Assembly: GCA_009914755.4 (NCBI GenBank)
Contig: CP086569.2
Coordinates: forward strand, 2,976,001-3,040,000
Reading direction: 5' to 3'
DNA length: 64,000 nt
From: the human T2T-CHM13v2.0 reference genome, Homo sapiens
Part shown: in pieces, positions 39,301-42,300 of the stretch
Layout: each line of letters begins with the position of its first letter
How positions within the stretch are numbered: the first letter of the stretch is position 1
Made by a program: the position numbers and the translations under genes
Notes under the pieces: generated by a model
Database searches by the model: none
Told to the model about the DNA's origin: nothing
Seen by the model: the letters and a program-made list of their open reading frames with translations, nothing else

Positions 39301-42300
39301 AGCAGACCTAATAGAGATCTACAGAACTCTTCACCCAAAATCAACAGAATATACATCCTTCTCAGCACAACATCACATTTATTCTAAAATTGACCAATAA
39401 TTGGAAGTAAAACACTCCTCAGCAAAGGCAAAAGAACGGAAATCATAGCAAACAGTCTCTCAGACCACAGTGCAATCAAATTAGAACTCAGGATTAAGAA
39501 ACTCACTCAAAACCACACAGCTACATGGAAACTGAACAACCTGCTCCTGAATGACTACTGGGTAAATGACAAAATTAAGGCAGAAATAAATAAGTTCTTT
39601 GAAACCAATGAGAACTAAGACACAATGTACCAGAATCTCTGGGACACAGCTAAAGCAGTGTGTAGAGGGAAATTTATAGCACTAAATGGCCACAGGAGAA
39701 AGCAGGAAAAATCTAAAATCAACACCCTAACATCACAATTAAAAGAACTAGAGAAGCAAGAGCAAACAAATTCAAAAGCTGGTAGAAGAGAAGAAATAAC
39801 TAAAATCAGAGCAGAACTGAAGGACATAGAGACACAAAAAATATTTTTAAAAAATCAATGAATCCAGAAGCTGTTTTTTTGGAAAGATTAACAAAATAGA
39901 TAGACTGCTAGCCAGATTAATAAAGAAGAAAAGAGAGAAGAATCAAATAGACACAATAAAACATGATAAAGGGGATATCACCACTGATCCCACAGAAATA
40001 CAAATGACCATCAGAGAATGCTATAAACACCTCTATGCAAATAAAACTAGAGAATCTAGAAGAAATGGATAAATTCCTGAACACGTACACACTCCCAAGG
40101 CTAAACCAGAAAAAGTTGAATCCCTGAATAGACCAATGACAAGTTCTGAAATTGAGGCAGTAATTAATAGCCTACCAACCAAATAAAGCCCAGGACCAGA
40201 TGGATGCACAGCTAAATTCTACCAGAGGTACAAAGAGGAGCTGGTGCCATCCCTTCTGAAACCATTCCAAACAATAGAAAAAGAGGGACTCCTCCCTAAC
40301 TCATTTTATGAGGCCAACATCATCCTAATAAAAAAACCTGGCTGAGACAAAACAAAAGAAAATTTCAGGCCAATATCCCTGATGAACATCAACGTGAAAA
40401 TCCTCATTAAAATCCTGCAAACCAAATCCAGCAGCACATCAACAAGCTTATCCACTGTGATCAAGTTGGCTTCATCTCTGGGATGCAAGGCTGGTTCAAC
40501 ATATGCAAATCAATAAGTGTAATCCATCACATAAACAGAACCACATGATTATCTCAATACATGCAGAAATGTATGTATTTCTGCATGTATTGACATGCAG
40601 AAAATGACAAAAACCACATGATTATCTAAATACATGCAGAAAAGGCCGTCAATACAATTCAACACCCCTTCATGCTAAAAATCCTCAATAAACTAGGTAT
40701 TGATGGAACGTATCTCAAAATAATAAGAGGTATTTATGACAAACCCACAACAAATATCATACTGAATGGGCAAACTGGAAGCATTCCCTTTGAAAACTGG
40801 CACAAGACAAGGATGCCCTCTCTCACCACTCCTATTTAACATAGTATTGGAAGTTCTGGCCAGGGCAATCAGGCAAGAGAAAGAAATAAAGGGTATTCAA
40901 ATAGGAAGAGAGGAAGTGAAATTTGCCTCAGTTTGCAGATGACATGATTGTATATTTAGAAAACCCCATCGCCTCAACTTTGCTGAAGTGGCTTATCAGG
41001 TTAAGCCACTTCAGCAAAGTCTCATATACAAAATCAGTGTGCAGAAATCACAAGCATTCCTATACACCAATAATAGACAGAGAGCCAAATCATGAGTGAA
41101 CTCCCATTCACAATTGCTACAAAGAGAATAAAATACCTAGAAATACAACTTACAAGGGATGTGAAGGACCTCTTAAAGCAGAACTACAAACCACTGTTCA
41201 AGGAAATAAGAGAGAACACAAACAAATGGAAAAACATTCCATGCTCATGGGTAGGAAGAATCAATATTGTGAAAATGGCCATACTGCCCAAATTAATTTA
41301 TAGATTCAATGCTATCCTCATCAAGCTACCCTTGACTTTCTTCACAGAATTGGAAAAAACTACCTTACATTTTATATGGAACCAAAAAGGAGCCCAATTG
41401 CCAAGACTATCCTAAGCAAAAGGAGCAAAGCTGGAGGCATCATGCTACCTGACTTCAAACTATGCAACAAGGCTGCAGTAACCAAAACAACATGGTACTG
41501 CTACCATAACAGATATATAGACCAATGGAACAGAACAGAGGCCTTGAAATAACCCCACACATCTACAACCATCTGATCTTTGACAAACCTGACAAAAGTA
41601 ATGGGGAAAGGATTCCCTATTTAATAAATGATGTTGGGAAAACTGGCTAGACATATGCAGAAAACTAAAACTGGACCCATTCCTTACACCTTACAGAAAT
41701 TAACTCAAGATGGATTAAAGACTTAAATGTAAGACCTAAAACTATAAAAACCCTAGAAGAAAACCTAGGCAATACCATTCAGCACATAGGCATGGCCAAG
41801 ACTTCATAGCTAAAACACCAAAAGCAATGGCAGCAAAAGCCAAAGTTGACAAATGAGATCTAATTAAACTAAAGAGCTTCTGCACAGTAAAAGAAACTAT
41901 TATCAGAGTGAGCAGGCAACGTACAGAATGGGAGAACATTTTTGCAATCTATCCATCTGAAAAAGGGCTAATATCCAGAATCTACAAATAACTTAAACAA
42001 ATTTAAAGGAAAAAAAATCAAAAAGTGGGCAAAGGATATGAACAGACACTTCTCAAAAGAAGACATTTATGCAGCTAACAAACATATGTAAAAAAGCTCA
42101 TCATCACTGATCATTAGAGAAATGCAAGTCAAAACCACAATAAGATACCATCTCACACCAGTTAGAATAGCGATCATTAAAAAGTCAGGAAACAACAGAT
42201 GGTGGAGAGGATGTGGAGAAATAGGAATACTTTTACACTGTTGGTGGGAGTGTAAATTAGTTCAACCATTGTGGAATACAGTGTGGTGATTCCTCAAGGA

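What the first reader, a model, noticed from the sequence alone, without database searches (positions are those of the whole stretch)
40533..41024. Two fold-back / template-switch micro-rearrangements inside ORF2 of the full-length plus-strand L1
Relative to L1 consensus there is a 73 bp insertion at 40570-40642. It consists of an inverted copy of the adjacent sequence, forming the palindrome atgcagaaatgtatgtatttctgcat, followed by a direct repeat of ccacatgattatct.aatacatgcagaaa. At 40972-41024 the consensus segment agcccaaaatctcc is replaced by an inverted copy of the immediately downstream sequence. This creates a perfect ~22 bp hairpin (actttgctgaagtggcttatcag / g / ttaagccacttcagcaaagt). 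Both are signatures of replication template switching (quasi-palindrome to perfect palindrome conversion). Two events occur within ~500 bp of a single element.
Basis: seen in the sequence. Interest (0 to 1): 0.5.

Follow-up and report, generated by a model that had tools for sequence, protein, structure and literature searches.

The report
Two templated fold-back mutations in dead L1
A long-dead, full-length L1 retrotransposon carries two small private scars, 400 bases apart, where a DNA polymerase briefly copied nearby sequence in the wrong place or from the wrong strand; each scar created a strong hairpin, but this is a well-described and apparently neutral kind of mutation.

Summary
I compared the element with a consensus of 26 independent L1PA copies.

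- **Site 1** is a net 60-nt insertion at 40543-40602, not 73 nt. Of those 60 nt, 52 are copies of the adjacent 27 nt, in the order direct, inverted, direct, around an 8-nt filler.
- **Site 2** (40977-41001) replaces consensus sequence with a 23-nt inverted copy of the sequence just downstream. The result is a perfect 19-bp stem with a 6-nt loop, not about 22 bp.

These are the only perfect hairpins with stems of 12 bp or more in the 64-kb window. I found none in 142 kb of other L1 sequence.

Neither site was a quasi-palindrome beforehand, so "quasi-palindrome correction" does not fit.

Both events look private and post-insertion:
- They are absent from every other L1 copy I examined.
- Event 1 creates an immediate in-frame stop in the reverse transcriptase.
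- All four patch copies carry D600H, a mutation that removes a catalytic Asp.
- The copies show 1 mismatch where about 7 would be expected if they dated from the insertion.

Event 2 fits a single switch-and-return, as in the four-point template-switch model. Event 1 needs at least three switches and resembles iterative templated insertion during break repair (SD-MMEJ, Pol theta type).

Replication and break repair cannot be told apart from sequence alone. Orthologous primate loci could not be checked. The kind is known, the case is a tidy example, and I saw no evidence of function. Interest is low.

The parts
36347..42866 (+). Host element: a full-length, inactive L1 (older L1PA-type), about 6.5 kb. 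It has a 5' UTR start (gggtggcttgcaagatggctgaatagg), an A-rich tail and possible target-site duplications (AAAAACTTTTC / AAAAATCTTTTC).
   Evidence: Collinear with 5-6 kb L1 copies from 37606 to about 42865 at 85-90% identity. Ends read. RT domain PF00078, E = 3.9e-34. Consensus translation matches human ORF2p residues 556-759. About 10% from the young consensus in ORF2 and 23-26% in the 5' part of ORF1. 35 indels and many stops.
40543..40602 (+). Event 1: net 60-nt insertion between ...AACAGAACC and AATGACAAAAACC..., that is after ORF2p Thr589. The boundary is ambiguous by 2-4 nt because of AACC and AA microhomology.
   Evidence: Alignment to the 26-copy consensus and to the 13-copy 5-kb consensus ('ins 60' at 40543). 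Reconstruction.
40543..40569 (+). Event 1, patch A: a 27-nt direct copy of the sequence that lies 13 nt downstream of the insertion point in the ancestor (now 40616-40642). It brings ACC ACA TGA into the ORF2 frame.
   Evidence: 26/27 identical to 40616-40642. Translation ...INRTT*. Left junction microhomology AACC.
40570..40577 (+). Event 1 filler TGTATGTA (2 x TGTA), of uncertain origin. It may be stuttered partial copies of the TGTA inside the inverted patch.
   Evidence: It is the only part of the insertion with no templated match in the reconstruction. The stutter reading is inference.
40578..40593 (-). Event 1, inverted patch: the 16-nt reverse complement of TCAATACATGCAGAAA. Together with 40554-40570 it forms the 17-bp hairpin.
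   Evidence: 15/16 identical to the reverse complement of 40627-40642. The single mismatch is the same site as in patch A. Hairpin.
40593..40604 (+). Event 1, second direct patch ACATGCAGAAAA. It is complementary to 40578-40588 across a 4-nt loop (ATTG), consistent with a second snap-back. It rejoins the original sequence through AA microhomology.
   Evidence: 10/10 identical to the source. Inverted pair I4, 11 nt, 100% complementary. Reconstruction.
40616..40643 (+). Template (source) of all three event-1 patches. It contains the codon CAT (40633-40635) in place of GAT = Asp600, and a later C>A change at 40628 (TCA>TAA) that the copies lack.
40977..40999 (-). Event 2: a 23-nt inverted copy of CTGATAAGCCACTTCAGCAAAGT, the sequence immediately downstream in the ancestor. 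It replaces consensus GCCCAAAATCTC(CTTAAG...).
   Evidence: Alignment to the consensus. Models A and B.
41000..41001 (+). Event 2: the 2 nt GT left unexplained by the single-switch model (filler). In the alternative model they are the remnant of the natural palindrome CTTAAG with a C>G change.
   Evidence: model B matches 66/68. Model A needs an 8-nt deletion plus 1 substitution.
41002..41020 (+). Event 2, right arm: original-orientation sequence TAAGCCACTTCAGCAAAGT. It served as the template and pairs perfectly (19 bp) with 40977-40995.
   Evidence: 0/19 mismatches.

Best explanation
These are two independent, neutral, post-insertion mutations in an already dead full-length L1. Each arose when a DNA polymerase left its template for a few tens of nucleotides and copied nearby sequence.

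Event 2 is one switch-and-return. Synthesis stopped after ...CGCCTCA and copied 23 nt of the opposite strand from just downstream (ACTTTGCTGAAGTGGCTTATCAG). It then returned 4 nt to the right of where the inverted copy ended. This is four-point order 1-3-4-2: an inverted repeat with an inverted 4-nt spacer. About 18-22 nt of original sequence were lost and 2 nt (GT) are untemplated.

Event 1 is an iterated version at a single point between ACC and AAT, with these steps:
1. The 3' end mis-annealed 13 nt ahead through AACC and copied 27 nt.
2. It added 8 nt of filler.
3. It folded back and copied 16 nt of itself in reverse complement.
4. It folded back again across a 4-nt loop and copied 11 nt.
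5. It rejoined the original position through AA.

I think event 1 is most likely a repaired double-strand break of the synthesis-dependent, microhomology-mediated, Pol-theta-type kind. Event 2 could be either a replication-fork template switch or the same kind of repair.

Shown here: the templated composition, the absence from other copies, and the order relative to private mutations. Inferred: which polymerase and pathway acted, and that the two events were independent.
For: Templated origin:
- The event 2 single-switch model reproduces 66/68 observed nt, whereas the linear alignment needs about 8 mismatches and 4 gaps.
- The event 1 model reproduces everything except the 8-nt filler and one later substitution. 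The patches are 26/27, 15/16 and 10/10 identical to the source.

Not chance:
- These are the only two hairpins with stem >=12 in 64 kb, and simulations reach at most 12. There are none in 142 kb of other L1 loci.

Private to this copy:
- The 26-copy consensus lacks both events, as do 3 old in-window copies.
- Junction k-mers are absent, allowing up to 2 mismatches, from all 64 fetched loci.
- A metagenome scan for the event-2 junction gave only a chance match in a bacterial contig. A viral-contig scan found nothing.

Post-insertion:
- Event 1 puts TGA in frame two codons after the junction, inside the RT domain.
- All four copies of the patch, including the inverted one, carry CAT instead of GAT at catalytic Asp600. 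Other L1 copies read G in 35 cases, A in 1 and C in none. The event therefore followed an inactivating private mutation.
- Both arms of event 2 share AAC>CAC, which none of 45 other copies has.
- Private divergence of the element is about 5-7%. About 7 substitutions would be expected in the duplicated nucleotides if they dated from the insertion. One is observed, giving P about 0.002-0.02.

Known mechanisms:
- Four-point template switching, including type 1-3-4-2 (PMC5453318).
- Single-nucleotide priming and reverse-complement flank inserts by POLQ (PMC5068794).
Against: - No orthologous primate sequence could be examined. The ancestral state comes from L1 consensus sequences of other subfamilies (87-90% identical), not from the same locus or the same subfamily.
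- The dating rests on small counts and on a rough estimate of private divergence.
- A 60-nt templated insertion is at the long end of what is usually reported for Pol-theta repair. In PMC5068794 most inserts are small.
- The 8-nt filler of event 1 and the GT of event 2 are unexplained.
- One junction of event 2 shows no microhomology.
- Using published counts, two such events within 500 nt are expected by chance in only about 0.5% of 64-kb windows of this age (rough). This argues mildly against independence.
Confidence: 0.8

Rival explanations
1. Both scars come from a single episode: one stalled fork or broken end repaired by low-processivity synthesis with serial template switches (micro-scale MMBIR/FoSTeS or one Pol-theta repair tract), which left two rearranged patches 400 nt apart.
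For: The events are close together. With the published genome-wide count of short template switches, the chance of a second event within +-480 nt is about 0.6-1% (count from PMC5453318). Both events look similarly young, with 0-1 post-event substitutions each. Event 1 already shows several consecutive switches.
Against: The roughly 330 nt between the events are collinear with the consensus and no more diverged than the rest of ORF2: 8.0% in 40606-40855 against 7-13% elsewhere. There is therefore no sign of an error-prone synthesis tract. The published event counts are lower bounds, so the chance of coincidence is underestimated.
Confidence: 0.1
2. The rearrangements arose during retrotransposition itself. 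The L1 reverse transcriptase jumped templates, or the cDNA snapped back during second-strand synthesis, so the copy was born with both scars.
For: L1 ORF2p and related RTs are known to switch templates and can copy DNA (established knowledge, not tested here). Group II intron-like RTs show snap-back and MMEJ activities similar to Pol theta (abstract of bioRxiv 10.1101/2022.03.14.484287, listed). A scar made at birth would also be absent from all other copies.
Against: All copies of the event-1 patch carry D600H, which inactivates the RT and is not found in other copies. A cis-acting source element should encode Asp600, so the substitution must have preceded the duplication in genomic DNA, unless it was an error of the same RT run. 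Duplicate copies are much more alike than expected for the element's age: 1 substitution observed against about 7 expected. The element is otherwise full-length and collinear, unlike twin-priming products.
Confidence: 0.06
3. The sequences were inherited from the source L1 subfamily or a sub-lineage. This is the refutation condition named by the first reader.
For: None of the comparison copies belongs demonstrably to the same subfamily. The best identities are about 88-91%.
Against: Both events are absent from young L1PA copies, from old in-window L1 copies and from outgroup L1s. The primate L1PA series is essentially a single lineage (established knowledge: Khan, Smit & Boissinot 2006), so an intermediate subfamily would have had to gain and then precisely lose both events. 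Event 1 introduces an immediate in-frame stop in the RT and sits beside D600H, which is incompatible with an autonomous source.
Confidence: 0.02
4. They are an assembly or sequencing artefact, such as chimeric fold-back reads.
For: No independent sequence covering the events could be found. The only matching public contig starts 33 nt downstream of event 2, and the ORF look-ups found nothing.
Against: The copies have diverged from their template by a substitution (40628) that also creates a stop codon, which an artefact would not produce. There are two different small structures, each with precise microhomology junctions. The surrounding alignment is clean.
Confidence: 0.02

Closest known systems
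Short-range template-switch mutations, four-point model (Loytynoja & Goldman 2017, PMC5453318; Walker et al. 2021, PMC7954356)
   Same: Event 2 is a cluster of apparent substitutions and indels that is explained by one reverse-complement copy of adjacent sequence. The 23-nt 2->3 fragment is longer than their 14-nt confidence threshold. It creates a new inverted repeat or hairpin, in an allowed switch order (1-3-4-2, or 1-4-3-2 pivoting on CTTAAG).
   Different: Event 1 cannot be written as one switch-and-return. It contains two direct patches and one inverted patch, and it resumes upstream of the departure point ('4 precedes 1'), an order reported as not observed. Those surveys masked repeats, so events inside L1 were not catalogued.
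Synthesis-dependent MMEJ / polymerase-theta templated insertions (Yu & McVey 2010, PMC2943611; van Schendel et al. 2016, PMC5068794; Kent et al. 2016, PMC4912351)
   Same: Event 1 is an insertion at a single point, with no loss of flanking sequence. It is built from several patches copied from within 40 nt of the junction, in both direct (loop-out or in trans) and inverted (snap-back) orientation. It has a short possibly untemplated stretch and 1-4 nt microhomologies at the junctions.
   Different: At 60 nt it is longer than most reported inserts. Neither a double-strand break nor Pol theta can be demonstrated from sequence.
Ripley quasi-palindrome correction (Ripley 1982, as summarised in PMC5453318)
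   Same: The outcome is a perfect inverted repeat made by copying the complementary arm.
   Different: That model requires a pre-existing near-perfect inverted repeat. The consensus sequences at both sites have none: they fold at -3.8 and -1.6 kcal/mol, no better than shuffles.
L1 twin-priming inversions and other retrotransposition-associated rearrangements
   Same: Both involve inverted sequence inside an L1.
   Different: Twin priming gives 5'-truncated elements with a large inverted 5' segment. Here the element is full-length and collinear, the inverted pieces are 16-23 nt duplications, and they postdate private mutations.
DUP-TRP/INV-DUP complex genomic rearrangements (kb-Mb scale; from my own knowledge: Carvalho et al. 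2011)
   Same: Event 1 leaves the core ACATGCAGAAA in the pattern direct, inverted, direct, direct. This is a small-scale analogue of a triplication with an inverted middle copy.
   Different: The scale is tens of nt rather than kb-Mb. There are no pre-existing inverted low-copy repeats. The resemblance is from memory and was not tested.

Membership tests
LINE-1 (L1PA-type) retrotransposon, full-length copy | ORF2 encoding an L1-type reverse transcriptase | tested here: met
   The consensus translation of the aligned region hits Pfam RVT_1 at E = 3.9e-34 and human L1 ORF2p residues 556-759 at E about 1e-129. The focal copy is 85-90% identical in DNA to 5-6 kb L1 copies.
LINE-1 (L1PA-type) retrotransposon, full-length copy | Complete 5' UTR start, A-rich 3' tail and target-site duplication | tested here: met
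   The 5' end gggtggcttgcaagatggctgaatagg is at about 36347 and the A-rich tail ends at about 42866. The flanks are AAAAACTTTTC / AAAAATCTTTTC. The TSD is imperfect by a 1-nt indel.
LINE-1 (L1PA-type) retrotransposon, full-length copy | Intact ORFs (retrotransposition competence) | tested here: not met
   There are many stops and frameshifts, and D600H sits at a catalytic Asp. This is a dead copy.
Short-range template-switch mutation (four-point model) | The mutation cluster is explained by one reverse-complement copy of nearby sequence, with far fewer residual differences than a linear alignment | tested here: met
   Event 2: 66/68 nt are reproduced, against about 8 mismatches plus 4 gaps in the linear alignment.
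Short-range template-switch mutation (four-point model) | The 2->3 fragment is long enough not to be chance (at least 14 nt in PMC5453318) | tested here: met
   The fragment is 23 nt for event 2 and 16 nt for the inverted patch of event 1. The threshold is quoted.
Short-range template-switch mutation (four-point model) | A single switch-and-return with point 4 not preceding point 1 | tested here: inconclusive
   Event 2 meets it (order 1-3-4-2 or 1-4-3-2). Event 1 does not: it needs at least 3-4 switches and resumes upstream, duplicating sequence in direct orientation.
Short-range template-switch mutation (four-point model) | Ancestral state established from an orthologous or outgroup sequence of the same locus | not testable with these tools
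   No primate genome collection was available. The ancestral state was inferred from paralogous L1 copies.
Ripley quasi-palindrome correction | A pre-existing near-perfect inverted repeat at the site | tested here: not met
   The consensus sequences fold at -3.8 and -1.6 kcal/mol (z = -0.18 and +0.34). The only seeds are CTTAAG and a 5-bp GCTGA/TCAGC stem.
SD-MMEJ / Pol-theta templated insertion | The insert is composed of copies of sequence within a few tens of nt of the junction, direct and/or reverse-complement, possibly in several rounds | tested here: met
   For event 1, 52/60 nt are copied from the adjacent 27 nt in three patches. For event 2, 23 nt are reverse complement of sequence 22 nt away.
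SD-MMEJ / Pol-theta templated insertion | Short microhomology at priming and rejoining junctions | tested here: inconclusive
   Event 1 has AACC (4 nt) on the left, AA (2 nt) on the right and a 1-nt overlap at the inner junction. For event 2 I saw no microhomology at the CTCA|ACTTTG junction (by inspection).
SD-MMEJ / Pol-theta templated insertion | Origin at a double-strand break, and dependence on Pol theta | not testable with these tools
   This needs genetics or an induced-break experiment.
L1 twin-priming inversion | A 5'-truncated element whose 5' portion is inverted relative to its 3' portion | tested here: not met
   The element is full-length and collinear with reference copies on one strand.
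Known structured RNA / miRNA precursor (Rfam) | A score at or above the family gathering threshold | tested here: not met
   The best hits are mir-4081 at 30.9 bits against a threshold of 70 and mir-8186 at 24.8 against 80. They occur on both strands, which is generic hairpin behaviour.

The most novel reading that the evidence does not exclude
The two scars are not independent. They would record one multi-switch repair episode, or a locally fragile spot. In that case event 1 exemplifies a class of micro-scale direct-inverted-direct templated insertion (return upstream of the departure point) that repeat-masked four-point surveys have reported as unobserved. Germline Pol-theta-type compound insertions of 50 nt or more would then be an under-counted source of new hairpins inside transposable elements.
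Probability: 0.1. Interest if true: 0.4.

Novelty: already known. Interest (0 to 1): 0.15.

Why it matters
It matters little for biology at this locus. The host L1 was already dead, and the hairpins show no sign of function.

The case is useful in three smaller ways:
- It is a clean worked example of how one polymerase mis-step can look like a dozen substitutions and indels, and can create a 17-19 bp hairpin from nothing. Aligners, divergence estimates and variant callers mis-score such events.
- Event 1 shows that compound events mixing direct and inverted copies exist in the germline record, outside the single switch-and-return model.
- Because transposable-element copies come with a known consensus, they could serve as a genome-wide substrate for counting such events, including in the repeat half of the genome that published surveys masked.

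Tried and rejected
- **Orthologues or independent reads of the locus.** I looked up exact ORF products next to and across the events. This gave only one 688-nt contig that does not reach the events.
- **Metagenome scan for the event-2 junction 21-mer**. The single hit, L066, has no similarity to the window and is a roughly 50% GC bacterial contig, so it is a chance match.
- **Viral-contig scan for the event-1 core**. Nothing found.
- **Test for one hypermutated repair tract.** The substitution profile along the element shows no local excess, so I did not adopt that idea as the main explanation.
- **Simple inversion at site 2.** Rejected, because only the first 23-29 nt match the reverse complement of the consensus segment and the rest is original-orientation sequence. 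It is an inverted duplication with replacement.
- **Tandem duplication followed by deletion at site 1.** Rejected as less parsimonious than a 60-nt insertion at one point.
- **Functional RNA or miRNA hairpin.** Rejected on Rfam scores and the short stem.
- **Exact greedy decomposition of the insert**. It was fragmented by the single post-event mismatch, so I replaced it with an explicit model.
- **Large protein-database and structure tools.** Not used, because they could not bear on the question.
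Full report
**What is there**

The region lies in the reverse-transcriptase part of ORF2 of a full-length plus-strand L1. The element runs from about 36347 to 42866.
- Its 5' end reads gggtggcttgcaagatggctgaatagg and its 3' end is an A-rich tail. The flanks are similar (AAAAACTTTTC / AAAAATCTTTTC).
- It is collinear with 5-6 kb L1 copies from 37606 to about 42865 at 85-90% identity.
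- It is about 10% diverged from a young L1PA consensus over ORF2 and 23-26% over the 5' part of ORF1. It is therefore an older L1PA-type copy.
- It is dead: it carries 35 indels against the consensus and many stop codons.

**Comparison set**

No repeat library was available. I fetched 63 independent L1 copies that are present as contaminating human or mouse DNA in bacterial genome assemblies, and one from a viral-contig collection.
- I built a consensus from the 26 copies that span the region and a 5-kb consensus from 13 long copies.
- The consensus translates to an open frame that hits Pfam RVT_1.
- It is nearly identical to human ORF2p residues 556-759 in solved structures, which gives residue numbers.
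- Three old L1 fragments inside the window (70-73% identity) serve as additional, older comparators.

**Check of the observation**

- The repeat finder reports 20-nt arms (95% complementary) at 40551-40570 / 40577-40596. It reports 19-nt arms (100%) at 40977-40995 / 41002-41020, and a direct repeat with 73-nt spacing.
- A scan of the whole window for perfect hairpins (stem >=12, loop <=12) returns exactly these two, with 19 and 17 bp stems. Thirty first-order Markov simulations never exceed 12 bp.
- 142 kb of other L1-containing loci contain none.
- As single-stranded DNA the two sites fold at -21.3 kcal/mol (z = -9.8) and -20.5 kcal/mol (z = -4.8).

Three details need correcting:
- The net insertion at site 1 is 60 nt (40543-40602), with nothing deleted.
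- The 'palindrome' at site 1 has a 6-nt loop.
- The perfect stem at site 2 is 19 bp, not about 22.

**Anatomy of event 1**

The consensus reads ...ATAAACAGAACC|AAAGACAAAAACC|ACATGATTATCTCAATAGATGCAGAAAAGG.... In the focal copy the following are inserted after ...AACAGAACC (40542):
- 40543-40569: a 27-nt direct copy of the sequence that starts 13 nt further on. It is 26/27 identical to 40616-40642.
- 40570-40577: TGTATGTA, which is unexplained.
- 40578-40593: a 16-nt reverse-complement copy of TCAATACATGCAGAAA, 15/16 identical.
- 40593-40604: ACATGCAGAAAA, a second direct copy (10/10). It is complementary to the preceding inverted patch across a 4-nt loop.

The original sequence then resumes at AATGACAAAAACC. 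The outer junctions share AACC and AA with their templates. An explicit model with these patches reproduces the observed 131 nt, apart from the filler and one substitution.

**Anatomy of event 2**

The consensus reads ...CTCA|GCCCAAAATCTC|CTTAAG|CTGATAAGCAACTTCAGCAAAGT|CTCA.... The focal copy reads ...CTCA|ACTTTGCTGAAGTGGCTTATCAG|GT|TAAGCCACTTCAGCAAAGT|CTCA....
- **Model B (single switch-and-return).** Leave after CTCA, copy the reverse complement of CTGATAAGCCACTTCAGCAAAGT, and return at TAAGCC. This is four-point order 1-3-4-2. It reproduces 66 of 68 nt and leaves only GT unexplained.
- **Model A.** Pivot on the natural palindrome CTTAAG (order 1-4-3-2). This needs an extra 8-nt deletion between TAAGC repeats and a C>G change.
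- **Linear alignment.** This needs about 8 mismatches and 4 gaps.

It is not a simple inversion, because the downstream arm is retained in its original orientation.

**Was there a quasi-palindrome beforehand?**

No. The consensus versions of both sites fold at -3.8 and -1.6 kcal/mol, no better than shuffles (z = -0.18 and +0.34). The inverted repeats were created, not perfected.

**Inherited or private?**

Everything I could test points to private events.
- All 26 young copies and the three old in-window copies lack both events.
- No fetched locus contains any of five junction-specific strings, even with two mismatches allowed.
- A scan of the metagenome collection for the event-2 junction returned one contig, which proved to be an unrelated bacterial sequence.
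- A scan of viral contigs for the event-1 core returned nothing.
- Event 1 places ACC ACA TGA in the ORF2 frame, a stop two codons after Thr589. An autonomous source element could not carry it.

**Timing relative to insertion**

- The codon for catalytic Asp600 (GAT in 35 of 36 other copies, never CAT) is CAT in the template and in all three patches, including the inverted one. The duplication therefore happened after an inactivating, private substitution.
- Both arms of event 2 share AAC>CAC, which none of 45 other copies has.
- Polarising focal-versus-young differences with two outgroup L1s gives 108 private changes against 42 young-lineage changes at 2089 informative sites. That is about 5-7% private divergence.
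- At that rate the roughly 118 duplicated nucleotides should have collected about 7 substitutions if the events dated from insertion. One is seen: C>A at 40628 in the template, absent from both copies. This gives P about 0.002-0.02.

These arguments favour genomic, post-insertion events over errors of reverse transcription. They rest on small numbers.

**Mechanism**

Event 2 matches the short-range template-switch mutations of Loytynoja & Goldman. That paper reports 4778 candidate events between human and chimp in the unmasked 48.5% of the genome. Type 1-3-4-2 makes up 23% and type 1-4-3-2 31% of high-confidence events (PMC5453318).

Event 1 does not fit that model. It needs at least three or four switches and resumes upstream of its departure point. 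The same paper reports that order as not observed, because it would require opening the newly made helix.

Its architecture matches synthesis-dependent microhomology-mediated end joining:
- It is an insertion at one point with no loss of flank.
- Its patches come from within 40 nt, in both orientations.
- It has a short unexplained stretch and 1-4 nt microhomologies.

In that model, loop-out priming gives direct copies and snap-back priming gives inverted copies. [quoted passage not shown] Pol theta needs as little as one base pair of priming and produces reverse-complement flank inserts in vivo (PMC5068794).

I therefore favour break repair for event 1 and leave event 2 open between a fork switch and repair. 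The pathway assignment is inference.

**One episode or two?**

From the published count, about 0.4-0.7 events are expected per 64 kb over 25-45 Myr. The chance of a second event within +-480 nt is about 0.6-1%. The pairing is therefore mildly surprising.

Against a single episode:
- The roughly 330 nt between the scars are collinear and not unusually diverged.
- The published counts are lower bounds.
- This window was picked for being odd.

I give a single compound episode about 10%.

**Function**

I found no evidence of function. Rfam gives only sub-threshold miRNA-like matches on both strands. The stems are too short for typical miRNA precursors, and the host element is a decayed repeat.

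**What could not be done**

No primate genome resource was available, so the decisive test could not be run. That test is to compare orthologous loci, which would give the true ancestral state and date each event. The subfamily consensus from a curated repeat library was also not available.

**Verdict**

This is a real and well-resolved pair of locally templated mutations of known kinds in a dead L1. The 'quasi-palindrome correction' label and several sizes do not. Interest is low.

Noticed in passing
Loci L002-L064, e.g. L005 = LZSC01000001.1, 'Mycobacterium sp.' contig of 7.4 kb: Sixty-three species-representative 'bacterial' genome assemblies contain contigs that are human (some mouse) L1 elements, several of them 5-7 kb and nearly full-length. 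This is host or laboratory DNA contamination in public prokaryotic assemblies.
   Followed up: partly
L001 = ENA ERZ27272770 k141_141741, equal to window 41053-41740: A 688-nt metagenome contig is 100% identical to the window and begins 33 nt downstream of the event-2 palindrome. The break may simply reflect repeat-limited assembly.
   Followed up: no
window 40633-40635 (and copies at 40560-40562, 40584-40587, 40594-40596): The codon for catalytic Asp600 of ORF2p is CAT (His) in this copy. This private substitution also creates the self-complementary CATG that sits at the inner switch points of event 1, so it may have favoured the fold-backs.
   Followed up: partly
window 40628: After event 1 the template copy acquired C>A (TCA>TAA, another stop). 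Both the direct and the inverted patch keep the ancestral C, so the patches preserve an older state of the sequence than their own template does.
   Followed up: yes
window ~38971-38995: An 18-nt expansion of an A-run (AAAAAAAAAAAAAAACAAAAAAAAAAACAGG) in the endonuclease part of ORF2. This is ordinary slippage, unrelated to the fold-back events.
   Followed up: partly
window ~42016: An 11-nt deletion relative to the L1 consensus near an A-run in the 3' part of ORF2.
   Followed up: no
window ~36150-36245: An antisense Alu fragment (…ggctggtcttgaactcct…ggattacaggcgtgagccaccac) lies about 100 nt upstream of the L1 5' end.
   Followed up: no
window 53250-52560 (- strand): An old L1 ORF2 fragment (about 73% identical to the focal copy) is interrupted by an Alu insertion just upstream of the region homologous to site 1.
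   Followed up: no
window 1-60: The window opens inside another L1, in antisense orientation (the 3' part of ORF2). Further old L1 fragments lie at about 5140-6220, 20790-21030 and 25665-26270.
   Followed up: no
window 37606-38105: The 5' part of ORF1 is 23-26% different from the young L1PA consensus, against 7-13% elsewhere. This fits the known rapid evolution of that ORF1 region between L1PA subfamilies and marks the copy as an older subfamily.
   Followed up: no
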